IMG/VR virus record: IMGVR_UViG_2541047895_000011
Origin: a virus
Taxonomy: Duplodnaviria; Heunggongvirae; Uroviricota; Caudoviricetes
Strand: one strand, 5' to 3'
DNA length: 32,441 nucleotides
The notes beneath the pieces were generated by a model. The model saw nothing but the letters and a program-made list of their open reading frames with translations. It ran no database searches and was not told where the DNA came from. Each line of letters opens with the position of its first letter. Position 1 is the stretch's first letter. The translations under genes were made by a program, and so were the position numbers. Of this stretch, positions 3,014-25,890 are shown one piece after another.

Positions 3014-3237
3014 TGCCGGACAACGTAGATTTTATTCAGGAACAACAGGCTGAATTACTGGAGCGCCAGATTAACGCGGCAAGGGTAAAACATTGTGGTG
3101 CTTCTGCGCTGGTTTGCGAAGAGTGTGACGCGCCAATACCTGCTGCCCGTCGTGCGGCTTATCCGTCAGCCACGCGTTGTGTTTCCTGTCAGTCAGTCTT
3201 TGAAGCAAAAAACAAACATTACCGGAGAACGGCATGA
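3013..3237 (+). CDS. TraR/DksA-family C4 zinc-finger protein (position of P2 orf82)
   Basis: 74 aa with two CxxC pairs (CEECDAP ... CVSCQ) in the spacing typical of the DksA/TraR zinc finger. Confidence 0.65.
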   Translation: MPDNVDFIQEQQAELLERQINAARVKHCGASALVCEECDAPIPAARRAAYPSATRCVSCQSVFEAKNKHYRRTA

Positions 3238-3509
3238 GTATTCGTATTGAAATTGGCGAACGTTATGTCGTTACCAGTGACAGCTTTCAGTTTATTCTCC
3301 ACGAGAAAAAGAGAGCTGAAAGCGGTAAAAATGCCGGTCAGGAATGGCTGGCGGTAGTTGGTTATTACCCGAAATTAAGCCAGCTCGTTTCCGGCCTGAT
3401 GCATCACGATATTCTGACCGGAAGCGCAAAATCTTTTGCTGATTTAAACGCGCAGGTTGAGCAACTCAGCAAGCGTTGTTCAGAGGCTTTTGGCTCACAT
3501 GGCCGTTAA
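3234..3509 (+). CDS. Hypothetical early protein (position of P2 orf83)
   Basis: 91-aa ORF; its stop overlaps the start of A. Confidence 0.5.
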   Translation: MSIRIEIGERYVVTSDSFQFILHEKKRAESGKNAGQEWLAVVGYYPKLSQLVSGLMHHDILTGSAKSFADLNAQVEQLSKRCSEAFGSHGR

Positions 3510-5808
3510 AGCCTCCGGGCATTTTGTCCCTCCGTCAGCATTTGCCGCAGGCACCGGTAAGACGTTTACCGGTGCTTATGCATGGAACGCGCCACGCGAG
3601 GCCGTCGGGCGCGAAAGACCCCTTACACGTGACGAGATGCGTCAGGTGCAAGGTGTTTTATCCACGATTAACCGCCTGCCTTACTTTTTGCGCTCGCTGT
3701 TTACTTCACGCTATGACTACATCCGGCGCAATAAAAGCCCGGTGCACGGGTTTTATTTCCTCACATCCACTTTTCAGCGTCGTTTATGGCCGCGCATTGA
3801 GCGTGTGAATCAGCGCCATGAAATGAACACCGACGCGTCGTTGCTGTTTCTGGCAGAGCGTGACCACTATGCGCGCCTGCCTGGAATGAATGACAAGGAG
3901 CTGAAAAAGTTTGCCGCCCGTATCTCATCGCAGCTTTTCATGATGTATGAGGAACTCTGCGATGCCTGGGTGGATGCGCATGGCGAAAAAGAATCGCTGT
4001 TTACGGATGAGGCGCAGGCTCACCTGTATGGTCATGTTGCTGGCGCTGCACGTGCTTTCAATATTTCCCCTCTCTACTGGAAAAAATACCGTAAAGGACA
4101 GATGACCACGAGGCAGGCATATTCTGCCATTGCCCGTCTGTTTAACGATGAGTGGTGGACTCATCAGCTTAAAGGCCAGCGTATGCGCTGGCATGAGGCG
4201 TTATTGATAGCTGTCGGGGAGGTCAATAAAGACCGTTCTCCTTATGCCAGTAAACATGCCATTCGTGATGTGCGTGCGCGCCGTCAGGCAAATCTGGAGT
4301 TTCTTAAATCGTGTGACCTTGAAAACAGGGAAACCGGCGAACGCATCGACCTTATCAGTAAGGTGATGGGCAGTATTTCTAATCCTGAAATTCGCCGGAT
4401 GGAGCTGATGAACACCATTGCCGGTATTGAGCGTTACGCCGCCGCAGAGGGTGATGTGGGGATGTTTATCACGCTGACCGCGCCGTCAAAGTATCACCCG
4501 ACACGTCAGGTCGGAAAAGGCGAAAGTAAAACCGTCCAGCTTAATCACGGCTGGAATGATGAGGCATTTAATCCGAAGGATGCGCAGCGTTATCTCTGCC
4601 GTATCTGGAGCCTGATGCGCACGGCATTCAAGGATAATGATTTACAGGTCTACGGTTTGCGAGTCGTCGAGCCACACCACGACGGAACGCCGCACTGGCA
4701 TATGATGCTTTTTTGTAATCCACGCCAGCGTAACCAGATTATCGAAATCATGCGTCGCTATGCGCTCAAAGATGATGGTGACGAAAGAGGAGCCGCGCGA
4801 AACCGTTTTCAGGCAAAACACCTTAACCGGGGCGGTGCTGCGGGATATATCGCGAAATACATCTCAAAAAACATCGACGGCTATGCACTGGATGGTCAGC
4901 TCGATAACGATACCGGCAGGCCGCTGAAAGACACTGCCGCGGCTGTTACCGCATGGGCGTCAACGTGGCGCATTCCGCAATTTAAAACGGTTGGCCTGCC
5001 GACAATGGGGGCTTACCGTGAACTACGCAAATTGCCTCGCGGCGTCAGCATTGCTGATGAGTTTGACGAGCGCGTCGAGGCTGCACGCGCCGCCGCAGAC
5101 AGTGGTGATTTTGCGTTGTATATCAGCGCGCAGGGTGGGGCAAATGTCCCGCGCGATTGTCAGACTGTCAGGGTCGCCCGTAGCCCGTCGGATGACGTTA
5201 ACGAGTACGAGGAAGAAGTCGAGAGAGTGGTCGGCATTTACGCGCCGCATCTCGGCGCGCGTCATATTCATATCACCAGAACGACGGACTGGCGCATTGT
5301 GCCGAAAGTTCCGGTCGTTGAGCCTTTGACTTTAAAAAGCGGCATCGCCGCGCCTCGGAGTCCTGTCAATAACTGTGGAAAGCTCACCGGTGGTGATACT
5401 TCGTCACCGGCTCCCACGCCTTCTGAACACGCCGCAGCAGTGCTTAATCTGGTAGATGACGGTGTTATTGAATGGAATGACCCGGTGGTCGTGAGGGCGC
5501 TCAGAGGCGCATTAAAATACGGCCTGAGAAGACCAAACCGTCAGCAAAGAAACGGAATACCGTTAAAACCGCATGAAATAGCACCATCGGCCAGGCTGAC
5601 CCGGTCAGAACGAATGCAAATTACCCGTATCCGTGTTGACCTTGCTCAGAACGGTATCAGGCCTCAGCGATGGGAGCTTGAGGCGCTGGCGCGTGGGGCG
5701 ACCGTAAATTATGACGGGAAACAATTTACGTATCCGGTTGCTGATGAGTGGCCGGGATTTTTACAAACAGAAATTGTTTTTGGGATTAATAAGTTATCTC
5801 TAAGCTAA
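3499..5808 (+). CDS. A: Rolling-circle replication initiator endonuclease, P2 gpA-like
   Basis: Large ORF (track 3457..5808); ATG at 3499 (MAVKASG...) overlaps the upstream stop and matches the P2 A N-terminus as I recall it; contains the tyrosine-rich motif GYIAKYISKN typical of rolling-circle initiators. Confidence 0.9.
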   Translation: MAVKASGHFVPPSAFAAGTGKTFTGAYAWNAPREAVGRERPLTRDEMRQVQGVLSTINRLPYFLRSLFTSRYDYIRRNKSPVHGFYFLTSTFQRRLWPRIERVNQRHEMNTDASLLFLAERDHYARLPGMNDKELKKFAARISSQLFMMYEELCDAWVDAHGEKESLFTDEAQAHLYGHVAGAARAFNISPLYWKKYRKGQMTTRQAYSAIARLFNDEWWTHQLKGQRMRWHEALLIAVGEVNKDRSPYASKHAIRDVRARRQANLEFLKSCDLENRETGERIDLISKVMGSISNPEIRRMELMNTIAGIERYAAAEGDVGMFITLTAPSKYHPTRQVGKGESKTVQLNHGWNDEAFNPKDAQRYLCRIWSLMRTAFKDNDLQVYGLRVVEPHHDGTPHWHMMLFCNPRQRNQIIEIMRRYALKDDGDERGAARNRFQAKHLNRGGAAGYIAKYISKNIDGYALDGQLDNDTGRPLKDTAAAVTAWASTWRIPQFKTVGLPTMGAYRELRKLPRGVSIADEFDERVEAARAAADSGDFALYISAQGGANVPRDCQTVRVARSPSDDVNEYEEEVERVVGIYAPHLGARHIHITRTTDWRIVPKVPVVEPLTLKSGIAAPRSPVNNCGKLTGGDTSSPAPTPSEHAAAVLNLVDDGVIEWNDPVVVRALRGALKYGLRRPNRQQRNGIPLKPHEIAPSARLTRSERMQITRIRVDLAQNGIRPQRWELEALARGATVNYDGKQFTYPVADEWPGFLQTEIVFGINKLSLS

Positions 5809-5930
5809 GACGCTCAAAGCAAGAGATTATTTTACTGTACGTAGCCATCTGGAATTGTGGCTGTGTTAAAACGCTCGAGATTTTTTGGATATCCAGTTAT
5901 ACTCCGCTTAGAAATCATTCGGAGACTAAG

Positions 5931-6977
5931 ATGGCGGTAAAAGTTGTTGATCTTTTTTGCGGTGCTGGCGGTTTAACGCACGGCTTACATTTGGCCGGAT
6001 TGGACGTTGTCGCAGGCATTGATTTAGAAGGTGAGTGTCGTGTTGCATACGAAAGCAATAATGATGCACTTTTTATTGAAAAAGATATATCTCTGGTGAC
6101 AAAAGATGAAATCGAAAATCTTTTTGAAGGGGCAAGTGTTAAAGTATTGGCCGGATGTGCACCTTGTCAGCCATTTTCTAAATATACTCAGGGAAAAGAT
6201 AAAAAAAATGATAAAAAGTGGCCGTTATTATATGAGTTTGAACGTTTAATAAAAGACACGAAACCAGAAATAGTTACAATGGAAAACGTTCCTGATGTGA
6301 CAAAACATTCTGTCTATGATGATTTTTATAATACCTTAATAGCATTGGGTTATTATGTTTGGGCAAATAAGATTGAATGTGTAGATTTTGAGGTTCCGCA
6401 AAACAGAGTGAGGCATGTATTACTCGCATCTAAATTTGCGCCGATTTCTCTGATGAAACCACAAACATCGGTAAAGCTGACAGTTAGGGATTGCATTGGT
6501 AATTTACCTTCGATTGAAGCGGGACAAGCAGATCCAAAAGACCCTCTCCATAAGGCGAGTAGATTGAGTGAAATTAATCTCAAACGTATTCTACATTCAA
6601 AACCGGGGGGGACATGGAGGGATTGGCCTGCTGAATTAATCGCTTCATGTCATGCCAAGAAAAGTGGGCAGGGATATGCCAGTGTTTATGGTCGTATGTC
6701 TTGGGATAAACCGAGTCCAACGATAACTACACTTTGTTATGGTTTTGGTAATGGACGTTTTGGTCATCCCGAGCAGCATCGTGCAATCTCACTTAGGGAA
6801 GCAGCATTACTTCAAACGTTTCCTGTTACATATTCATTTACCCAACCGGGCGAGCCGATCAAAATGAAAAATGTCGGGCGTATGATAGGTAATGCTGTTC
6901 CTGTAAACTTAGGTAAAGCGATTGGTCTTTCAATAGTACATCATTTGAAAGAGTTTCACCCCGCCGCTCTTAAATAA
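5931..6977 (+). CDS. DNA (cytosine-5)-methyltransferase, Dcm family
   Basis: 348 aa with motif I (DLFCGAGG), catalytic PCQ motif IV (GCAPCQPFS), ENV motif VI (MENVPDV), QNRVR motif VIII and a C-terminal GNAVPV motif; GGAG Shine-Dalgarno 6 nt upstream of the ATG; AT-rich compared with the phage backbone. Confidence 0.9.
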   Translation: MAVKVVDLFCGAGGLTHGLHLAGLDVVAGIDLEGECRVAYESNNDALFIEKDISLVTKDEIENLFEGASVKVLAGCAPCQPFSKYTQGKDKKNDKKWPLLYEFERLIKDTKPEIVTMENVPDVTKHSVYDDFYNTLIALGYYVWANKIECVDFEVPQNRVRHVLLASKFAPISLMKPQTSVKLTVRDCIGNLPSIEAGQADPKDPLHKASRLSEINLKRILHSKPGGTWRDWPAELIASCHAKKSGQGYASVYGRMSWDKPSPTITTLCYGFGNGRFGHPEQHRAISLREAALLQTFPVTYSFTQPGEPIKMKNVGRMIGNAVPVNLGKAIGLSIVHHLKEFHPAALK

Positions 6978-7675
6978 GCCTGAGTATCAAGATAAGTTTG
7001 TATATTTTCAAGGATGCAGTTGAGATAATGAAAAACTTCATCCTTCATTTCTGTTAGTGTATCAATAGATGTATCTCTGCCTTTGTTTCTAAATGATTCA
7101 GAACCATGAGCAAGGTCGTTTCTGGCCTTTTTTATTGGAAGTAAATTGCAACCATTTCGCGTTATTTCTGAATCTGTATCTGCTGAGAAGCCATATTTTT
7201 CAGCGACTTCTCTAATTTTTCTAGCATCAACATTTCCAGAAAATAACGGATTTTTATTTGATTGGATAAGTTTTTTGTGAGCGTTTAGCCACTCTTTAAA
7301 TATAACTTTTGCAATGTTCCCTTGTGAGAAATCTATTTTCCCATTTGGTGATTGTAAACTATGAAATGCTACTCTTGTAAGGTTTTCATTTACAGTGTCT
7401 GCACATAATGATTCATTAGACATTAAAACATTATGAATGTCTTCTATTGCATTGGAAATGGTTGCTTCAATGAGATTGTACAATATAATAAATGCATTAG
7501 CCTTTAAAATATGAGTCATGTCAATATCAATGGGTTGTTGTATAGGCGCATCGCTTGTATTCTCTTTATAGACTAGAGATGGTTTTTTGTTTATTAGTAA
7601 CTGAATGAATGAGAAGTATTCATTAATATCTTGCATTCTTTCTTGGAAAAGAATTTTACTTGTCATCTCCTCCAT
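6956..7675 (-). CDS. HEPN-like protein (candidate Rx4H motif, RNDLAHG), putative RNase effector
   Basis: 239-aa ORF, second gene of the leftward operon, 10 nt downstream of the DUF262 gene; near the C-terminus, KKARNDLAHGSESF fits the HEPN Rx4-6H signature; AT-rich. Domain call is by eye and not profile-verified. Confidence 0.55.
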   Translation of the reverse strand: MEEMTSKILFQERMQDINEYFSFIQLLINKKPSLVYKENTSDAPIQQPIDIDMTHILKANAFIILYNLIEATISNAIEDIHNVLMSNESLCADTVNENLTRVAFHSLQSPNGKIDFSQGNIAKVIFKEWLNAHKKLIQSNKNPLFSGNVDARKIREVAEKYGFSADTDSEITRNGCNLLPIKKARNDLAHGSESFRNKGRDTSIDTLTEMKDEVFHYLNCILENIQTYLDTQAYLRAAG

Positions 7676-7685
7676 TTACTTGGCC

Positions 7686-8831
7686 TCACTCCATATTTTC
7701 ATCTTCATTTTCATCTTCGTCGACAATATTTTCTGGAATGTCTTTCCCAAGCAACTTGTTTTTTACATATTCAATGCGTGCTTTAACTTTGGGTTTAGAG
7801 TTGCTGGCATCTGAACGTGTGTGCGTGATAAACTCTTTCGAGTTGATCCAGTCATCAATATTTTTAGGAACTAAATTGGGTTCTTCCTCTAGTGCTAATG
7901 TTGCACCGACGGCAAGAGCTTCGAAACGAATCCTAGGAACAGTGGTGGCGTTTTTCACCTTTCTGAAACCATTTGGGAAATGTGTATTAATGAATTGGCA
8001 CATTTTATGAAATTTTTCCGCCAGCATAGCTGCGTTTTCATCTGTATATTCGGCATTTTTACGTTTTAAATAGGTTGTAAGAAATTCATCAACGCTTTTT
8101 CTGAAATCAAGATATTCTTCAGTGTAGGCAAAGTAGCGTAGTGCCAATTCTGGATATTCAGAGCGACGTTTTCTTGCATCTCCCAAAGGACAGATGCTAT
8201 GAAATAGAGGATCTTCGGAAATTTCATTGATAAATGCAAGGAATGGCCCATCATGGCTACCTTGCCGTTGTTCCATTGTTGTTAGTTTTTTTCCGCCAGT
8301 ATTCAGACGGTCAAAAATTTCCCTTCTTGTCTCTTCGTCACAATGTTCTGTAAGTTCAATCATTCGAATAGTTTTTCTATCAAAACGTAGGCGACGGGGA
8401 GTACTGAAATCAGAATATTTAAAACCATTGGCTGTGACTAATTTCTGCAGGCCTTCAAGAGTTAGTTTGTTATTGGTAAATTGGTGTAGGGTTCTTATTC
8501 GTTGGCTACCGTCAACAATTTCAAGTCTACCTTCATTTTCACCTGAACCAATATCGGCAACGAATATGTAAGGTATAGGAAGATTTAAAAGCAGAGATTC
8601 AATGAAACGGGATTTTTGCTTGTTGTTCCAGATAAACTCCCTTTGGTAGTCAGGTATAAAAAGCTCTGCCTCATCTTCTTCAAGACCATTCTGAAATTTG
8701 TCCACAATAACACTTATCGGGAACTCACGTATTTCATGGTCAGTGATTTTTTGCATTTCAACTATGCTTTGATCTAAAAGCTCCTTTTCTTCTTTAGTTT
8801 TTGGGGTATGTTCTGCTTTTTTTCTCGCCAT
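7686..8831 (-). CDS. DUF262 / ParB-like (GmrSD N-terminal-type) protein with acidic C-terminal tail
   Basis: 381 aa; N-terminal region has the DUF262 hallmarks (IPDYQREFIW followed by EIVDGSQRIRTL, a DGQQR-type motif); no recognisable DUF1524/HNH module; C-terminus is DEDENEDENME; first gene of the leftward operon starting near cos. Confidence 0.75.
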   Translation of the reverse strand: MARKKAEHTPKTKEEKELLDQSIVEMQKITDHEIREFPISVIVDKFQNGLEEDEAELFIPDYQREFIWNNKQKSRFIESLLLNLPIPYIFVADIGSGENEGRLEIVDGSQRIRTLHQFTNNKLTLEGLQKLVTANGFKYSDFSTPRRLRFDRKTIRMIELTEHCDEETRREIFDRLNTGGKKLTTMEQRQGSHDGPFLAFINEISEDPLFHSICPLGDARKRRSEYPELALRYFAYTEEYLDFRKSVDEFLTTYLKRKNAEYTDENAAMLAEKFHKMCQFINTHFPNGFRKVKNATTVPRIRFEALAVGATLALEEEPNLVPKNIDDWINSKEFITHTRSDASNSKPKVKARIEYVKNKLLGKDIPENIVDEDENEDENME

Positions 8832-8970
8832 GAGCTTATTATCCTACTATGCGTGTGATTGCATTAAATTGCATGTTAAACAAAAGCATAATCTATATCA
8901 GTCAATCAGCCAGTGGCAAGGTGTTGTGATTACAATGCAACTGCATTAGAACCGACTCATGAAGCGGGCG

Positions 8971-8989
8971 GGCGAGGCGGGGAAAGCAC
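8971..8989. other. Candidate cos site (19-nt P2-type cohesive end, GGCGAGGCGGGGAAAGCAC)
   Basis: Sequence matches the P2 cohesive-end sequence as I recall it, and sits where expected, between the A-side cargo and Q. Confidence 0.6.
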
Positions 8990-9131
8990 TGCGCGCTGGC
9001 GGTGGTGCTGATTTTATTTTTTCAGCGTCTGAGCGCGTCGTGGCGGCGTTTAGTCTGCCCGTTGGGGTGTTGGTGTGTTTGCGGGATGTTTTGTGCGGTG
9101 GGGAGCGTGTGAGGGCGTGATGACAGGGTGT

Positions 9132-9153
9132 AAAAAAGCCGCCCGCAGGCGGC
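9132..9153 (-). terminator. Rho-independent terminator after Q (leftward transcript)
   Basis: GC-rich hairpin (GCCGCC-CGCA-GGCGGC, 9138..9153) immediately after the Q stop, followed on the minus strand by a run of six T (9132..9137). Confidence 0.6.
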
Positions 9154-9158
9154 GATGT

Positions 9159-20831: not shown

Positions 20832-23024
20832 ATGAGCACAAAATTCAGAACCGTTATCACCACTGCCGGTGCAGCAAAGCTGGCAGCGGCAACCGCACCG
20901 GGAGGGCGGAAGGTCAACATTACCACGATGGCCGTCGGGGATGGCGGTGGTAAATTGCCTGTCCCGGATGCCGGACAGACCGGGCTTATCCACGAAGTCT
21001 GGCGACATGCGCTGAACAAAATCAGTCAGGACAAACGAAACAGTAATTATATTATCGCAGAGCTGGTTATTCCGCCGGAGGTGGGCGGTTTCTGGATGCG
21101 TGAGCTTGGCCTGTACGATGATGCGGGAACGCTAATTGCCGTGGCAAACATGGCCGAAAGTTATAAACCAGCTCTTGCCGAAGGCTCAGGGCGTTCGCAG
21201 ACCTGCCGCATGGTCATCATCGTCAGCAGTGTGGCCTCAGTGGCGTTGACTATTGACACCACAACGGTGATGGCGACGCAGGATTACGTTGATGACAAAA
21301 TTGCAGAGCACGAACAGTCACGACGTCACCCGGACGCTTCGCTGACCGCAAAAGGTTTTACTCAGTTAAGCAGCGCGACCAACAGCACGTCTGAAACACT
21401 GGCCGCAACGCCGAAAGCGGTAAAGGCCGCATATGACCTTGCTAACGGGAAATATACTGCACAGGATGCCACTACAGCGCGAAAAGGTCTTGTCCAGCTC
21501 AGTAGTGCCACCAACAGCACGTCTGAAACGCTCGCCGCAACACCAAAAGCGGTTAAGGCAGCGTATGACCTTGCTAACGGGAAATACACTGCACAGGACG
21601 CCACCACAGCGCGAAAAGGCCTTGTCCAGCTCAGTAGCGCCACCAACAGCGATTCTGAAACGCTTGCGGCAACGCCAAAGGCGGTAAAAGCAGCATATGA
21701 CCTTGCTAACGGGAAATATACCGCACAGGACGCCACCACAGCGCGAAAAGGCCTTGTCCAGCTCAGTAGCGCCACCAACAGCGATTCTGAAACGCTTGCA
21801 GCAACGCCAAAGGCGGTTAAGACAGCGTATGACCTTGCTAACGGGAAATACACTGCGCAGGATGCCACCACGGCACGGAAAGGCCTTGTCCAGCTCAGTA
21901 GCGCCACCAACAGCGATTCTGAAACGCTTGCAGCAACGCCAAAGGCGGTTAAGACAGCGTATGACCTTGCTAACGGGAAATACACTGCGCAGGATGCCAC
22001 CACGGCACGGAAAGGCCTTGTCCAGCTCAGTAGCGCCACCAACAGTGATTCTGAAACGCTGGCCGCAACACCAAAAGCAGTGAAGTCTGCCTATGACAAT
22101 GCTGAAAAACGTCTTCAGAAAGATCAGAACGGTGCGGATATTCCGGGAAAGGATACCTTCACGAAAAATATCGGTGCCTGTCGTGCTTATAGCGGCGCTT
22201 TGAGCACTGAAGCCGGAAACTGGACAACCGCTCAGTTTATTGAATGGCTGGATTCCCGTGGTGCATTTAATCATCCGTACTGGATGTGCAAATGTTCATG
22301 GTCATACGGCAATAATAAAATTATTACCGATACTGGCTGTGGAACTATTCATCTTGCAGGTTGCGTTATTGAGGTTATGGGTAATAAAGGTGCCATGACC
22401 ATCCGTGTAACAACACCAAGCACTTCCACCGGAGGCGGCACCACTAACGCTCAATTCACTTATATTAATCATGGTGATGCTTATGCCCCCGGCTGGCGAC
22501 GAGACTACAACACGAAAAACCAGCAGCCTGCATTTGCTTTAGGGCAAACAGGAAGCAGGGTTGCAAATGATAAAGCTGTTGGCTGGAACTGGAATAGCGG
22601 TGTTTATGATGCAGATATCAGCGGTGCATCGACATTAATCCTCCACTTCAATATGAATGCGGGGAGTTGCCCTGCCGTACAGTTCCGTGTGAATTATAAG
22701 AACGGCGGTATTTTTTATCGTTCAGCACGTGATGGTTATGGATTTGAGGCTGACTGGTCAGAGTTTTACACCACAACCCGCAAACCCTCTGCGGGAGATG
22801 TTGGTGCATATACCAAAGCTGAATCGGATTCTCGCTATGTACGAGATATTCGCCTGGGCACACGTGTTGTTCAGACTATGCAAAAAGGTGTGATGTATGA
22901 AAAATCAGGCCATGTAATTACAGGGCTTGGTATTGTCGGTGAAGTCGATGGTGATGACCCCGCAGTATTCAGACCAATACAAAAATACATCAATGGCACA
23001 TGGTATAACGTCGTACAGGTGTAA
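20832..23024 (+). CDS. H: Tail fibre protein, P2 gpH-like, with an internal tandem repeat array and an AT-rich C-terminal domain
   Basis: 730 aa; P2-like N-terminal part, then six in-frame 44-aa repeats, then a Cys-containing C-terminal domain of lower GC. Confidence 0.9.
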   Translation: MSTKFRTVITTAGAAKLAAATAPGGRKVNITTMAVGDGGGKLPVPDAGQTGLIHEVWRHALNKISQDKRNSNYIIAELVIPPEVGGFWMRELGLYDDAGTLIAVANMAESYKPALAEGSGRSQTCRMVIIVSSVASVALTIDTTTVMATQDYVDDKIAEHEQSRRHPDASLTAKGFTQLSSATNSTSETLAATPKAVKAAYDLANGKYTAQDATTARKGLVQLSSATNSTSETLAATPKAVKAAYDLANGKYTAQDATTARKGLVQLSSATNSDSETLAATPKAVKAAYDLANGKYTAQDATTARKGLVQLSSATNSDSETLAATPKAVKTAYDLANGKYTAQDATTARKGLVQLSSATNSDSETLAATPKAVKTAYDLANGKYTAQDATTARKGLVQLSSATNSDSETLAATPKAVKSAYDNAEKRLQKDQNGADIPGKDTFTKNIGACRAYSGALSTEAGNWTTAQFIEWLDSRGAFNHPYWMCKCSWSYGNNKIITDTGCGTIHLAGCVIEVMGNKGAMTIRVTTPSTSTGGGTTNAQFTYINHGDAYAPGWRRDYNTKNQQPAFALGQTGSRVANDKAVGWNWNSGVYDADISGASTLILHFNMNAGSCPAVQFRVNYKNGGIFYRSARDGYGFEADWSEFYTTTRKPSAGDVGAYTKAESDSRYVRDIRLGTRVVQTMQKGVMYEKSGHVITGLGIVGEVDGDDPAVFRPIQKYINGTWYNVVQV
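21352..22098. repeat. Six tandem copies of a 132-bp (44-codon) unit inside H, the phage tail-fibre repeat
   Basis: The motif ACCAACAGC recurs at 21378, 21510, 21642, 21774, 21906 and 22038, exactly 132 bp apart; units 4 and 5 appear identical; the encoded unit is GLVQLSSATNS(T/D)SETLAATPKAVK(A/T)AYDLANGKYTAQDATTARK. Confidence 0.9.
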
Positions 23025-23027
23025 TTT

Positions 23028-23555
23028 ATGCAGCATTTAAAAAATATTACTGCGGGTAATCCCAAAACTATTGCCCAATATCAACTGACAAAAAATTTTG
23101 ATGTTATCTGGTTATGGTCTGAAGACGGAAAAAACTGGTATGAGGAAGTAAGTAATTTTCAGGAAGACACGATAAAGATTGTTTACGACGAGAATAATAT
23201 AATTGTCGGCATCACCAGAGATGCTTCAACGCTTAACCCTGAAGGTTTTAGCGTTGTCGAGGTTCCTGATATTACCGCCAACCGACGTGCGGATGACTCA
23301 GGTAAATGGATGTTTAAGGATGGTGCCGTGATTAAGCGGATTTATACGACAGACGAACAGCAGCAACTGGCAGAATCACAAAAGGCAACTTTACTTTCCG
23401 AAGCTGAATCCGTGATTTTGCCGCTGGAGCGCGCTGTCAGGCTGAATATGGCAACAGATGAGGAACGCAGCCGACTGGAAGCATGGGAACGCTACAGCGT
23501 TCTGGTCAGCCGTGTGGATCCTGCAAATCCTGAATGGCCGGAAATGCCGCAATAA
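23028..23555 (+). CDS. G: Tail fibre assembly chaperone, P2 gpG-like
   Basis: 175 aa immediately after H; size and position of P2 G. Confidence 0.85.
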
Positions 23556-23776
23556 GTTGTATAAGCTCTGGTGTGAGATTACATATCTATGGCACAGAGT
23601 AAAGCCTAATCTGACAGGCCGCTCTGTGTCTGGAGTAGATTTTAGTAAAGCATTATTTCATTAGTGCAAATTCTAAACAATACATTTTATGTATATGATA
23701 TCCTGCGGACTTTAATGACTTGGTTTAGGCTAACCAGATAACACTGAAGGAATATTTTTGATAATTAAGGTGCGGT

Positions 23777-24370
23777 ATGTTTACTAAGCGACGATTAAAA
23801 AATATTAACTGGGAGGCAAGTTCAGTGATTCTTGCTATGGTTCTCTTTGTTGGAAATATATTTTATACAAATCATCGTGATGATATAAGCATGGAGGCTG
23901 AGAGAGACAGTATCAGAACAATGTTTGCATATGAAATCGCTAATAACCATCGCGCTCTCACTTTTCTTGATAAAACGAGAAATATTGGCTTTGACGAAAA
24001 TTCGGAGCATTTTGTTGGCGAGCCTTTTGCCATTAATGTCGAATCATTAGGAGGGCCTCGCTTACAGATTGCATTAAACCAGACTGATAAAGTTTTTAAA
24101 GCCTACTTCAGTGAATTAAGTAAACTTGATAAAGAGGATGTTACTCTTCTTATGGACTATTACCATGAGCAAAGCATCCTGCTGGAGTGTGTAAAATCTA
24201 CGTTAGAGAAGATGAAAAGCAATAATGATATTAAAGTTGATATTGATGGTTACTTATTAGAAGAACACTTCATGAATGAGTTTAATCTTTCTAATATTTT
24301 GCTTAAACGCTATAGCCATTTGTTGTCACAACACCTCAAAAAACCTGAAACAAAAGATTTACATAATTGA
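23777..24370 (+). CDS. Hypothetical membrane-anchored protein at the P2 Z/fun cargo position
   Basis: 197-aa ORF in an AT-rich island between G and FI; N-terminal hydrophobic segment (SSVILAMVLFVGNIFY); a terminator hairpin follows downstream; no motif I recognise. Confidence 0.6.
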   Translation: MFTKRRLKNINWEASSVILAMVLFVGNIFYTNHRDDISMEAERDSIRTMFAYEIANNHRALTFLDKTRNIGFDENSEHFVGEPFAINVESLGGPRLQIALNQTDKVFKAYFSELSKLDKEDVTLLMDYYHEQSILLECVKSTLEKMKSNNDIKVDIDGYLLEEHFMNEFNLSNILLKRYSHLLSQHLKKPETKDLHN

Positions 24371-24577
24371 TGATCTGCTAATGGTTATTCATGGGATAAC
24401 TATGTTTTATATGTAATCCAACTCAGATGAATTATTGATTCTGGATAATAACCGCAGAGCGGCATATACCCTGACAGGCAAATGTCCGCTTCTTGCTCAA
24501 AGCAGACTGTCAGATTTGATAACTTTTGGGTTATGTAAATTGTCAGTCGGAAAATGAGTGTGTGCAAATCAGGACAG

Positions 24578-24600
24578 GCGGGCGAATTGCCCGCTTTTTC
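24578..24600 (+). terminator. Rho-independent terminator downstream of the Z/fun-position ORF
   Basis: Hairpin GCGGGC-GAATT-GCCCGC followed by TTTTTCTTT. Confidence 0.65.
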
Positions 24601-24699
24601 TTTATCTGTTGTTTCATCCCCTGACCAGCCAGCTCAAATAGCGTCTCATGCTTTGCACAACAGAAAATAGTTGCACCCATTAACCACGGAGTTAAACGG

Positions 24700-25890
24700 A
24701 TGAGTGACTATCATCACGGCGTGCAGGTGCTGGAGATTAACGACGGCACCCGCGTCATTTCCACCGTATCCACCGCCATTGTCGGCATGGTCTGCACGGC
24801 CAGCGATGCGGATGCGGAAACCTTCCCCCTCAATAAACCGGTGCTGATTACCAATGTGCAGAGCGCAATTGCAAAGGCCGGTAAAAAAGGCACGCTGGCG
24901 GCATCGTTGCAGGCCATCGCCGACCAGTCAAAACCGGTCACCGTTGTCGTGCGTGTGGAAGACGGCACCGGCGACGACGAGGAAGCGAAACTCGCGCAGA
25001 CCGTTTCCAATATCATCGGCACCACTGACGAAAACGGTCAGTACACCGGACTGAAAGCCCTGATGGGGGCTGAGTCGGTTACCGGCGTTAAACCGCGCAT
25101 TCTTGGTGTGCCGGGGCTGGACACCAAAGAGGTTGCCGTCGCACTGGCATCGGTATGCCAGGAACTGAATGCATTCGGGTATATCAGCGCATGGGGCTGT
25201 AAAACCATTTCCGAGGTGAAAGCCTACCGCCAGAATTTCAGCCAGCGTGAGCTGATGGTTATCTGGCCGGATTTCCTCGCATGGGATACGGTCACCAGTA
25301 CCACCGCCACCGCGTATGCCACCGCCCGTGCGCTGGGGCTGCGCGCTAAAATCGACCAGGAGCAGGGCTGGCATAAAACGCTGTCCAACGTCGGGGTAAA
25401 CGGTGTTACCGGCATCAGTGCATCTGTATTCTGGGATTTGCAGAAGTCTGGCACTGATGCTGACCTGCTGAACGAGGCAGGCGTCACAACGCTGGTTCGC
25501 CGCGACGGTTTCCGTTTCTGGGGTAACCGTACCTGCTCCGATGACCCACTGTTCCTCTTTGAAAGCTACACACGCACTGCGCAGGTACTGGCCGACACGA
25601 TGGCTGAGGCGCACATGTGGGCTATTGATAAGCCCATCACCGCAACGCTGATTCGCGACATCATTGACGGCATCAATGCCAAATTCCGCGAACTGAAAAA
25701 CAACGGTTATATCGTGGATGGCACATGCTGGTTCAGTGAAGAATCCAACGATGCGGAAACCCTCAAGGCCGGAAAACTGTATATCGACTACGACTATACA
25801 CCGGTGCCTCCTCTCGAAAACCTGACCCTGCGCCAGCGTATTACTTCCAGATACCTGGCAAGTCTGGTCACCTCGGTTAACAGCAATTAA
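24700..25890 (+). CDS. FI: Tail sheath protein, P2 gpFI-like
   Basis: 396 aa; size and position of P2 FI. Confidence 0.9.
   Translation: MSDYHHGVQVLEINDGTRVISTVSTAIVGMVCTASDADAETFPLNKPVLITNVQSAIAKAGKKGTLAASLQAIADQSKPVTVVVRVEDGTGDDEEAKLAQTVSNIIGTTDENGQYTGLKALMGAESVTGVKPRILGVPGLDTKEVAVALASVCQELNAFGYISAWGCKTISEVKAYRQNFSQRELMVIWPDFLAWDTVTSTTATAYATARALGLRAKIDQEQGWHKTLSNVGVNGVTGISASVFWDLQKSGTDADLLNEAGVTTLVRRDGFRFWGNRTCSDDPLFLFESYTRTAQVLADTMAEAHMWAIDKPITATLIRDIIDGINAKFRELKNNGYIVDGTCWFSEESNDAETLKAGKLYIDYDYTPVPPLENLTLRQRITSRYLASLVTSVNSN

What the first reader, a model, noticed from the sequence alone, without database searches (positions are those of the whole stretch)
23556..24699. Second AT-rich cargo island at the Z/fun position encoding a 197-aa membrane-anchored protein of unknown function
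Between G and FI, where P2 carries the Z/fun gene that confers T5 resistance, there is a roughly 1.1-kb AT-rich segment with a single ORF (23777..24370) and its own terminator. The protein has one N-terminal hydrophobic helix and no motif I can recognise. It may be a superinfection-exclusion or other lysogenic-conversion factor, or it may be Z/fun itself; I cannot tell from memory.
Basis: partly seen in the sequence, partly recalled or inferred. Interest (0 to 1): 0.6.

Follow-up and report, generated by a model that had tools for sequence, protein, structure and literature searches.

The report
Orphan membrane-protein cargo gene in P2-like prophage
Where phage P2 carries its T5-blocking gene Z/fun, this prophage carries an unrelated, uncharacterised single-gene cassette for a small membrane-anchored helical-bundle protein that also turns up at cargo and defence hotspots of other mobile elements, so it is a plausible but untested phage-exclusion gene.

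Summary
A 34% G+C cassette (true limits 23629-24484) lies between tail-fibre-assembly gene G and sheath gene FI of a P2-like prophage. It holds one real gene, 23777-24370, 197 aa.

It is not Z/fun. P2 Fun(Z) is a 528-aa P-loop ATPase on the other strand and shows no similarity (best BLASTP E 0.83). The "own terminator" (24576-24596) lies in flank DNA shared by all P2-like phages compared, not in the cassette.

The protein belongs to a tiny orphan family: PHROG 3829, function unknown, and 29 representatives among 1.84 billion proteins. It has no consistent Pfam, NCBIfam, PADLOC or PDB sequence match.

A confident AlphaFold model (pLDDT 83.7) shows one N-terminal membrane helix running straight into an up-down four-helix bundle. 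Charge distribution predicts that the bundle faces the periplasm.

The gene occurs in 203 of 5,426 complete E. coli genomes, against 13 for fun(Z). Relatives sit in P4-like satellites after the primase, next to a type II restriction-modification system, next to TIR and PD-Lambda-3 defence genes, and inside a siphophage tail module.

Best reading, inferred and untested: a stand-alone envelope-level superinfection-exclusion protein. The hotspot is well known; the family is new but unsurprising. Interest is moderate.

The parts
23556..23628 (+). Conserved spacer after the G stop codon (left flank of the hotspot). It includes a stable hairpin at about 23591-23630 and the word AATCTGACAG.
   Evidence: 90% identical to P2 14900-15346, with homology ending at 23628. 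The same sequence is present in P22H4, P24C9 and PhiR44_1. RNA fold z = -3.0.
23629..24484 (+). Variable cargo cassette, 856 bp, 34.0% G+C. It replaces the 2,086-bp fun(Z) cassette of P2.
   Evidence: Homology breakpoints with P2. G+C content. Other phages hold different cassettes between the same flanks.
23766..23771 (+). Shine-Dalgarno-like AAGGTG, 6 nt before the ATG. The T-run + GATAAT + AAGG block travels with the gene into other genetic contexts.
   Evidence: Sequence. Upstream alignment of six contexts.
23777..24370 (+). Gene for the 197-aa orphan protein (PHROG 3829; RefSeq 'hypothetical' or 'lysogenic conversion protein', WP_032155057).
   Evidence: dN/dS 0.16-0.62 among close alleles.
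23816..23872 (+). Codons 14-32: the single hydrophobic (transmembrane or signal-anchor) helix, preceded by the KRRLK N-tail. With helix 1, it is the best-conserved part of the protein.
   Evidence: Hydropathy and charge counts. Conservation by region. The AF2 helix 12-66 is continuous.
23888..24310 (+). Codons 38-178: up-down four-helix bundle (helices 38-66, 92-116, 119-148, 151-178) with a 25-residue conserved loop (67-91). Predicted to be periplasmic.
24455..24479 (+). Right end of the cassette. It carries CAGAGCGGC (reverse complement of left-flank GCCGCTCTG) and CTGACAGGC (direct copy of 23611-23619). These may be a recombination scar.
   Evidence: the repeat finder families D4, I13 and I1.
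24485..24699 (+). Conserved right flank shared by all P2-like phages compared. It holds the CTGTCAGATT arm (24498-24516), a long conserved hairpin (~24503-24549), the terminator, and the pF late-promoter region up to the FI start.
   Evidence: 85% identical to P2 17433-17752. Multi-phage comparison. P2 annotation of the pF activator site and transcription start. RNA fold.
24576..24606 (+). Intrinsic-terminator-like hairpin (9 pairs, 6 of them G-C) plus a T-run. It is a locus terminator in the conserved backbone, not cassette-borne.
   Evidence: Conserved, with compensatory changes, in P2, P22H4, P24C9, vB_YpM_115 and PhiR44_1.

Best explanation
**What it is (shown).** The segment is a self-contained single-gene accessory cassette (a 'moron') at the known G/FI cargo hotspot of a P2-like prophage. 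It stands in place of, and is unrelated to, P2's Z/fun.

**The protein (predicted).** It is a bitopic inner-membrane protein. A short, positively charged N-terminus stays in the cytoplasm. One highly conserved membrane helix runs without a break into helix 1 of a ~140-residue four-helix bundle. No catalytic motif is present.

**How it most likely works (inferred, not shown).**
- The bundle faces the periplasm.
- The protein acts alone, by protein-protein contact at the inner membrane.
- It excludes superinfecting phages at the genome-entry step, either by binding an incoming phage's injection apparatus (tape measure or tail-tip proteins) or by binding the inner-membrane host factor that the apparatus uses.
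- The benefit goes to whichever mobile element carries it.
For: **Position and identity**
- Flanks are shared with P2 and the interior is unrelated.
- The same site holds fun(Z), a 251-aa ORF, NUDIX+HAD, or LysR+NepI in other Peduoviruses.
- The literature defines this as P2 'moron position 2' / the Z/fun hotspot. The hotspot among the tail genes downstream of GpL holds 16% of recognised P2 defence systems (PMC3573123; PMC13586616; bioRxiv 10.1101/2024.10.15.618418).

**Autonomy and mobility**
- The cassette's dS is 0.03-0.05, while the flanking G and FI differ by dS 0.87 and 0.21 between the same two phages.
- It is in 203 of 5,426 complete E. coli genomes. In 201 of them the full 1,144-bp query, flanks included, is also matched. 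That is about 20% of the 1,024 genomes matching any part of that query.

**Company kept by family members**
- Directly after the alpha primase in two P4-like satellites. The primase-att interval is a minor P4 defence hotspot.
- Upstream of, and co-oriented with, a type II MTase + REase pair (446-nt gap to the MTase) at the end of a Salmonella lambdoid prophage.
- Beside a putAbiC-domain protein in Proteus.
- Beside the TIR candidate PDC-S66 in an E. coli integrative element.
- In an island with PD-Lambda-3_B.
- Beside ArdB/RadC.
- Inside a Pectobacterium siphophage tail module.
- On an IncFII plasmid near IS91 and a PIN/HTH pair.

**Structure and topology**
- The five AF2 models agree (pLDDT 80-84), with helix 12-66 continuous.
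- There is a single hydrophobic segment. The N-tail carries 2-8 K/R in most members (one has a single K/R; a truncated homologue is excluded), and the C-domain is net acidic in all but one.
- Distant members carry paired Cys (CxxxxC) in the C-tail, as expected for an oxidising compartment.
- The membrane helix is as conserved as the best part of the bundle, 0.86 against 0.76-0.86. This argues for specific intramembrane contacts rather than a passive anchor.
- No enzymatic domain appears in Pfam, NCBIfam, PADLOC or PDB searches.
Against: - There is no functional test, and no homology to any characterised exclusion or defence protein. PHROGs returns only phrog_3829; hhalign against P22 SieA and SieB gives probability <1%.
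- The AC1 lysogen, with a 97.5%-identical copy, showed no resistance beyond what its TIR system explains.
- The hotspot also carries non-defence cargo: neaT in CFT073 and an efflux pump in a Yersinia phage.
- Topology rests on hydropathy and charge heuristics. No dedicated predictor was available, and the helix is only borderline hydrophobic in this allele (1.54).
- No promoter was identified. The gene is co-oriented with the late tail operons and no canonical terminator follows G, so it might be expressed mainly late in lytic growth. The AT-rich DNA might also be H-NS-silenced in lysogens.
- Frameshifted 99-aa alleles and one IS insertion exist.
Confidence: 0.35

Rival explanations
1. Abortive-infection type membrane protein. 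The bundle or membrane helix senses an infection cue, and the protein then oligomerises and depolarises or permeabilises the inner membrane. The infected cell dies or arrests before phage release.
For: The defence-hotspot contexts are the same as for the main explanation. Polar residues conserved in and next to the membrane helix (N11, W12, E13, S16, N27) would suit helix-helix oligomerisation. Membrane proteins are believed to be suicide effectors in known systems (PMC9122126).
Against: It has only one membrane helix and no partner gene in most contexts. The neighbouring TIR protein matches a single-gene PADLOC candidate model (PDC-S66), and a 73%-identical relative lacks it. Nothing suggests toxicity: 201 of 203 genome matches cover at least 80% of the gene, though reading-frame intactness was not checked.
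Confidence: 0.17
2. Non-defence lysogenic-conversion factor. A membrane-tethered periplasmic bundle alters host envelope physiology or signalling, for example by binding the periplasmic domain of a sensor kinase, chemoreceptor or transporter. This changes host fitness or virulence, as neaT does at the same P2 site.
Against: The fold matches are generic; de novo designed bundles score higher. There is no sequence similarity to the sensor domains. Repeated adjacency to restriction-modification, TIR, PD-Lambda-3 and AbiC-like genes, and placement in satellite and phage hotspots, is more typical of conflict genes.
Confidence: 0.23
3. It is Z/fun, or a diverged Z/fun homologue, and blocks T5 in the same way.
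For: Only the shared position between G and FI.
Against: Fun(Z) is 528 aa, on the opposite strand, and annotated as a P-loop ATPase of the Sll1717 family. BLASTP best E is 0.83 over 34 residues. No DNA homology exists inside the cassette.
Confidence: 0.01
4. A phage-intrinsic late function (lysis timing, tail or tail-fibre assembly accessory), transcribed by read-through from the V-G late operon.
For: It is co-oriented with G and FI. No canonical terminator lies between the G stop and the ORF.
Against: It is absent from most P2-like phages, including P2 itself. It is present in satellites, an IncFII plasmid, integrative elements and non-phage islands. It is linked to very different G alleles (dS 0.87).
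Confidence: 0.04

Closest known systems
P2 Fun(Z) (Z/fun), the T5-blocking lysogenic-conversion gene at the same site
   Same: It is a non-essential AT-rich single-gene cargo between G and FI, bounded by the same conserved flanks.
   Different: There is no sequence relation. Fun(Z) is 528 aa against 197 aa here, is annotated as a P-loop ATPase rather than a membrane-anchored helical bundle, and lies on the opposite strand. It is about 15 times rarer in E. coli: 13 genomes against 203.
Small membrane-anchored superinfection-exclusion proteins (P22 SieA; and, from general knowledge, T4 Sp and Imm, HK97 gp15, lactococcal Sie2009)
   Same: These are prophage- or phage-encoded, act as single genes without an enzymatic domain, and are inner-membrane proteins thought to act at DNA entry. 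That is the same proposed mode of action. HK97 gp15 is likewise a moron among tail genes (my own knowledge, not tested here).
   Different: No sequence or profile similarity was found: P22 SieA and SieB give hhalign probability <1%, and no annotated PHROG matches. A four-helix-bundle ectodomain has not been reported for these proteins, to my knowledge. Exclusion activity is untested here.
Periplasmic four-helix-bundle ligand-binding domains of chemoreceptors and sensor kinases (Tar, Tsr, PcaY, PilJ, LytS-N)
neaT of CFT073 prophage phi-b0847 (PMC3573123)
   Same: It is an AT-rich, unameliorated single-gene moron at the same G/FI position of a P2-like prophage.
   Different: neaT is a multi-pass acyltransferase (PF01757) on the opposite strand, with a virulence and fitness phenotype. 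The two proteins are unrelated.
SNIPE, a membrane-bound nuclease that cleaves phage DNA during injection (PMC13190303)
   Same: It is a constitutively membrane-localised defence that exploits the site of genome entry and tape-measure contacts. That makes it a conceptual analogue of the proposed mechanism and a source of suitable assays.
   Different: SNIPE has a nuclease domain. This protein has no catalytic domain and no similarity to SNIPE was seen.

Membership tests
P2 Fun(Z) / Sll1717-type P-loop ATPase | Sequence similarity to P2 NP_046777 (528 aa) | tested here: not met
   BLASTP best E 0.83 over 34 residues. No blastn match inside the cassette.
P2 Fun(Z) / Sll1717-type P-loop ATPase | Blocks T5 growth when expressed | not testable with these tools
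   This needs a plating assay. The only published lysogen data for a carrier phage (AC1) did not include T5.
PHROG 3829 (function unknown) | Full-length match to the family profile | tested here: met
   E 1.5e-132, residues 1-197 against profile positions 1-197 of 197.
Moron / lysogenic-conversion cassette at P2 'moron position 2' | Lies between conserved genes G and FI, is variable among relatives, and has deviant base composition | tested here: met
   Site definition in PMC3573123.
Moron / lysogenic-conversion cassette at P2 'moron position 2' | Own promoter and terminator, and expression in the lysogen | tested here: inconclusive
   Only one weak, badly placed sigma-70 match. The terminator belongs to the conserved flank. 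Only ~25 nt upstream travels with the gene across contexts. No expression data.
Known superinfection-exclusion families (P22 SieA, SieB; annotated PHROGs) | Sequence or profile homology | tested here: not met
   hhalign probability 0.8% (SieA) and 0.3% (SieB). hmmscan of PHROGs at E <= 1 returns only phrog_3829.
Known superinfection-exclusion families (functional class) | Blocks DNA entry of superinfecting phage without killing the cell | not testable with these tools
   This needs adsorption, injection and survival assays.
Known or candidate anti-phage defence systems (PADLOC-DB 2.0) | Significant match to a defence-protein model | tested here: not met
   Best hit is PDC-M46A at E 0.0046, in 1 of 28 members. 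No model is hit by more than one member.
4HB_MCP-type periplasmic sensor domains | Up-down four-helix bundle continuous with a membrane helix | tested here: met
4HB_MCP-type periplasmic sensor domains | A second membrane helix and a cytoplasmic signalling module, plus Pfam family membership | tested here: not met
   There is a single hydrophobic segment and the protein ends at residue 197. No Pfam match.

The most novel reading that the evidence does not exclude
The 197-aa protein founds a new family of single-gene, envelope-level anti-phage (exclusion) proteins: one membrane helix plus a periplasmic four-helix bundle. The family moves between the P2 tail-gene hotspot, the P4 primase-att hotspot, siphophage tail modules, and integrase-proximal slots of integrative elements. 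It protects about 4% of E. coli genomes, and about one in five genomes showing a P2-like G/FI junction, by blocking genome injection.
Probability: 0.35. Interest if true: 0.6.

Novelty: new member of a known kind. Interest (0 to 1): 0.4.

Why it matters
- **Prevalence.** The G/FI site of P2-like phages is a textbook cargo hotspot, but its commonest occupants in E. coli are uncharacterised. This cassette is about 15 times more frequent than the eponymous Z/fun: 203 genomes against 13 of 5,426 complete genomes.
- **Mobility.** It is carried by isolated, plaque-forming phages (AC1, PhiR44_1, D8, 12W and others). Its family recurs at cargo or defence loci of at least five other kinds of mobile element.
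- **If it excludes phages.** It would add a structurally new, enzymatically inert, envelope-level mechanism to the prophage defence repertoire. It could also affect the host range of therapeutic coliphages on the roughly 4% of strains that carry it.
- **If it does not.** It is a widespread lysogenic-conversion protein of unknown effect on the host envelope.
- **Ease of testing.** Either way it is a cheap experiment: one 594-bp gene, with lysogen-forming carrier phages already in hand.

Tried and rejected
- **Z/fun identity.** Rejected by BLASTP and blastn against P2.
- **Domain and family searches.** Pfam, NCBIfam and PADLOC on the protein and on 28 family members gave only scattered, sub-threshold, non-recurrent hits: NCH2, PDC-M46A, LmuA and others.
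- **PDB sequence profile search.** Nothing below E 0.24.
- **Fold searches.**
  - Foldseek against BFVD gave nothing below E 0.07.
  - The afdb50 library was unavailable.
- **BFVD lead: HP1 orf1** (another P2-family phage). Followed up and rejected: hhalign probability 0.2%, and its translated sequence shows an additional hydrophobic stretch that this protein lacks.
- **P22 SieA and SieB.** No relation.
- **RNA genes.** Rfam and tRNA scans of the segment found nothing.
- **Promoter.** The search was uninformative.
- **Literature.** Searches by accession, PHROG and FIGfam identifiers, and for 'lysogenic conversion protein', found no study of this protein. DefensePredictor supplements do not list the three RefSeq accessions searched. 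The NAR 2026 supplements are not held.
- **The RefSeq name 'lysogenic conversion protein'.** No NCBIfam HMM supports it, so I treat it as positional naming and not as evidence.
- **TIR-effector idea.** I considered that the family might be an effector of the adjacent TIR protein. I rejected this as the general case: the TIR matches a single-gene PADLOC candidate model (PDC-S66) and is missing next to a 73%-identical relative.
Full report
**1. What is in the sequence**

The window is a P2-like (Peduovirus) prophage. The finding's segment is 100% identical to E. coli strains 2015C-4136CT1 and FDAARGOS_1261.

Upstream lies a 175-aa Caudo_TAP tail-fibre-assembly protein, the P2 G homologue, at 23028-23555. 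Downstream lies the tail sheath FI at 24700-25890.

The segment 23556-24699 is 36.7% G+C, against 51.7% for the window. Only this island and a first one at about 5.5-8.3 kb fall below 42% to that extent.

The ORF 23777-24370 (+) encodes 197 aa and has an AAGGTG ribosome-binding site 6 nt upstream. No tRNA, Rfam family or other credible ORF lies in the segment.

**2. True limits, and the 'own terminator'**

Alignment with P2 (NC_001895) shows homology running through window 23628 (= P2 15346). It resumes at 24485 (= P2 17433). The cargo is therefore 856 bp (34.0% G+C), where P2 has 2,086 bp.

Phages with other cargo were compared: P22H4, P24C9, Yersinia vB_YpM_115 and PhiR44_1.
- The left flank always ends in ...AATCTGACAG(G/T)CCGCTCTGTG.
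- The right flank always begins around TCCGCTT..GCTCAAAGCAGACTGTCAGATTTGATA.

The strong terminator-like hairpin at 24576-24596 sits in this shared right flank. By the P2 alignment it lies immediately upstream of the annotated pF activator-binding site. It is conserved, with compensatory changes, in all phages compared. It is a terminator of the locus, not of the cassette.

Between the G stop and the ORF there is a stable hairpin (23591-23630, z = -3.0) but no canonical terminator. The one sigma-70-like match (23738-23765) would initiate inside the ribosome-binding site.

Across six genetic contexts, only about 25 nt upstream (T-run, GATAAT, AAGG) travels with the gene. How and when the gene is transcribed is therefore open. 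Read-through from the late V-G operon is possible.

**3. It is not Z/fun**

P2 fun(Z) is a 528-aa protein on the opposite strand, and RefSeq calls it a P-loop ATPase of the Sll1717 family. BLASTP against the 197-aa protein gives nothing better than E 0.83.

fun(Z) itself is rare. It is in 13 of 5,426 complete E. coli genomes, while this gene is in 203.

**4. The protein family**

- PHROGs gives a full-length match to phrog_3829, function unknown (E 1.5e-132).
- Pfam, NCBIfam, PADLOC and a PDB profile search give nothing significant.
- Scanning 28 family members individually yields no recurrent family.
- The word-indexed search of 5.8 billion proteins finds 38 clusters, all Enterobacterales: Escherichia, Salmonella, Pantoea, Kosakonia, Pluralibacter, Enterobacter.
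- An exhaustive profile search of 1.84 billion representatives finds only 29 proteins. The full-length ones are about 165-218 aa with the same layout, and many of the rest are short fragments.
- One scan of a representative genome for each of 185,579 species finds two loci.

RefSeq's occasional name 'lysogenic conversion protein' has no HMM behind it. I could find no paper on the protein.

The family alignment shows invariant R47, N57 and L117. Nearly invariant are S16, A51, E53, I54 and Y129. The IRTMxAYEIxxN motif lies just beyond the membrane helix.

**5. Structure and topology**

With 24 close homologues the AlphaFold model was mediocre (pLDDT 66.9). Adding distant members gave five concordant models (pLDDT 79.9-83.7, pTM 0.72). 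The model shows:
- one uninterrupted helix, residues 12-66;
- a 25-residue loop (67-91) that is conserved among the closer homologues;
- helices 92-116, 119-148 and 151-178, which together with the end of the first helix form an up-down four-helix bundle.

Fold searches were uninformative about function:
- Foldseek against viral models finds nothing below E 0.07.

There is one hydrophobic segment, residues ~14-32. Its 19-residue hydropathy is 1.54 here and 1.4-2.3 in relatives. No second one exists.

The N-tail carries 2-8 Lys/Arg in most members (one has a single Lys/Arg; a truncated homologue is excluded). The C-terminal domain is net acidic in all but one member. Several distant members have a CxxxxC pair in the C-tail or loop.

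By the positive-inside rule this favours an N-in/C-out signal-anchor with the bundle in the periplasm. This is an inference from heuristics, not a measurement.

The membrane helix and helix 1 are the most conserved parts of the protein. All 11 substitutions separating the window allele from PhiR44_1 fall at residues 69-191. This suggests that the membrane helix makes specific contacts.

**6. Population and mobility**

In E. coli the gene is chromosomal and 95.6-100% identical. In 201 genomes the full 1,144-bp query, flanks included, is matched. That is about one fifth of the 1,024 genomes matching any part of that query.

Thirteen phage records carry it, representing about nine distinct phages, because several appear as both GenBank and RefSeq entries. 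They include plaque-forming isolates:
- AC1
- PhiR44_1
- D8
- 12W
- P24E6b
- P24B2
- P22H1

Between the window and PhiR44_1 the cassette differs by dS 0.05, while G differs by dS 0.87 and FI by 0.21. The cassette has therefore moved recently between diverged backbones.

dN/dS is 0.16-0.62 on small counts. This is purifying selection, but weaker than on FI (0.11).

Decay occurs occasionally: a 99-aa frameshift allele on about 40 contigs, and one ISEc12 insertion.

**7. Company kept by relatives**

| Relative | Identity to the window protein | Context |
|---|---|---|
| Pantoea ananatis and Kosakonia oryzendophytica | 62-63% | Directly after the alpha primase of P4-like satellites. The primase-att interval is a minor P4 defence hotspot holding 7% of P4 systems (PMC13586616) |
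| Salmonella | 63% | End of a lambdoid prophage, 446 nt upstream of a type II MTase + REase pair (PADLOC E 3e-182 and 4e-178) |
| Candidatus Pantoea formicae | 57% (54% in the A1 alignment) | Next to ArdB-type antirestriction and RadC genes |
| Enterobacter cloacae | 67% | IncFII plasmid, between IS91 and a PIN/HTH pair |
| Proteus mirabilis | 30% | Next to a putAbiC-domain protein and an HD protein |
| E. coli paralogue P0059 | 28% | 39 nt downstream of a TIR protein matching PADLOC PDC-S66, in the integrase-proximal slot of an integrative element |
| P0081 (73% identical to P0059) | not measured | Same slot without the TIR protein, in an island with PD-Lambda-3_B |
| Pectobacterium | 21% | Opposite-strand insert within a siphophage tail module |

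The family is thus consistently stand-alone cargo of mobile elements. It is often found among conflict genes.

**8. Mechanism**

Shown:
- the position of the cassette and its non-identity with Z/fun;
- the orphan status of the family;
- its mobility and its genetic contexts;
- a confident helical-bundle model.

Inferred:
- the periplasmic orientation of the bundle;
- action by protein-protein contact alone, since there is no catalytic domain;
- function as a single gene.

The most economical reading is superinfection exclusion at the genome-entry step (confidence about 0.35). Rivals are:
- a membrane-acting abortive-infection protein (0.17);
- a non-defence envelope or signalling modifier, as with neaT at the same site (0.23);
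- a phage-intrinsic late function (0.04);
- Z/fun (0.01).

The main counter-evidence comes from Rousset et al. The AC1 lysogen carries a 97.5%-identical copy. It resisted only lambda and LF82_P8, a phenotype reproduced by the TIR system cloned from AC1's defence hotspot. The listed phages (lambda, T4, P1, 186cIts, CLB_P2, LF82_P8, AL505_P2, T7) include no T5. The hotspot also demonstrably carries non-defence genes.

**9. Comparison with what is known, and verdict**

The hotspot is well described (PMC3573123; PMC9122126; PMC13586616; bioRxiv 10.1101/2024.10.15.618418).

The protein resembles known small membrane-anchored exclusion proteins in layout and lifestyle, but it fails every homology test I could run: PHROGs, and P22 SieA and SieB. 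At the fold level it resembles periplasmic four-helix-bundle sensor domains, but it lacks their second membrane helix and output module.

I file it as a new member of a known kind: uncharacterised hotspot cargo and a candidate exclusion or defence gene. Interest is moderate (0.4). The case rests on the gene's prevalence, its recurrence across several kinds of mobile element, and the ease of testing it. No surprising mechanism has been demonstrated.

Noticed in passing
window 5809-9158: This is the first AT-rich island (39% G+C), at the classic tin/old position between the replication gene and the portal gene. It holds a C5 DNA methyltransferase (5931-6977, +), a 239-aa ORF with no match (6956-7675, -), and a 381-aa protein matching PADLOC NsnA and PD-T4-2_A (7686-8831, -). 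It is probably a methylase-linked defence module.
   Followed up: partly
window 20832-23024 (about 21350-22150): The tail-fibre gene H contains about six tandem copies of a ~44-aa unit (KGLVQLSSATNS.SETLAATPKAVK.AYDLANGKYTAQDATTAR). The repeats also create long spurious ORFs on both strands.
   Followed up: no
window 23608-23626 and 24498-24516; also 23611-23619 / 24471-24479 and 24455-24463: Every P2-like G/FI junction compared keeps AATCTGACAG on the left and its complement CTGTCAGATT on the right of whatever cassette is present. These could be the arms of an ancestral hairpin. This cassette's right end also repeats left-flank words (CTGACAGGC direct, CAGAGCGGC inverted), which may be a scar of the recombination that installed it.
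   Followed up: partly
window 24503-24549: A long imperfect hairpin is conserved in all P2-like phages compared. It lies between the cargo site and the conserved terminator upstream of pF. It has no Rfam match and its function is unknown.
   Followed up: partly
window 23777-24370 compared with L001 (PhiR44_1): The cassette is far more similar between phages (dS 0.05) than its flanking genes G (dS 0.87) and FI (dS 0.21). It has been exchanged recently among diverged P2-like backbones, independently of tail-fibre type.
   Followed up: yes
L018 (E. coli 2023CK-01509) 3049-6182; proteins P0041 and P0043: Decayed copies exist. One has an ISEc12 (IS21-family) insertion that splits the gene. A 99-aa frameshift allele is seen on about 40 contigs.
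   Followed up: partly
L019 6090-7657; L023 596-7678: A 28%-identical E. coli paralogue (218 aa) sits 39 nt downstream of a TIR protein matching PADLOC candidate PDC-S66, next to the integrase of an integrative element with shufflon and type IV pilus genes. A close relative of that paralogue lacks the TIR protein but lies in an island with PD-Lambda-3_B and a HEPN_Toprim_N protein.
   Followed up: partly
L022 7001-7582 (Pectobacterium cacticida prophage): A 21%-identical family member is inserted on the opposite strand inside a siphophage tail module, between a pb9-like distal tail protein and a 726-aa protein that may be the tape measure. This is a second, independent case of a moron among tail genes.
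   Followed up: no
L015 2137-3443 (Peduovirus P24C9); L016 1-3461 (Yersinia phage vB_YpM_115); L014 2455-3210 (P22H4): Other occupants of the same G/FI site are: a NUDIX hydrolase (weak PADLOC PDC-S07 match) plus a HAD phosphatase; a LysR regulator, a hypothetical protein and a NepI efflux pump; and an unmatched 251-aa ORF on the opposite strand. The hotspot carries mixed cargo, not only defence genes.
   Followed up: partly
L004 776-2362 (P2 fun(Z)) compared with E. coli genomes: The eponymous Z/fun gene is present in only 13 of 5,426 complete E. coli genomes, all at >=99% identity. RefSeq annotates it as a P-loop ATPase of the Sll1717 family.
   Followed up: yes
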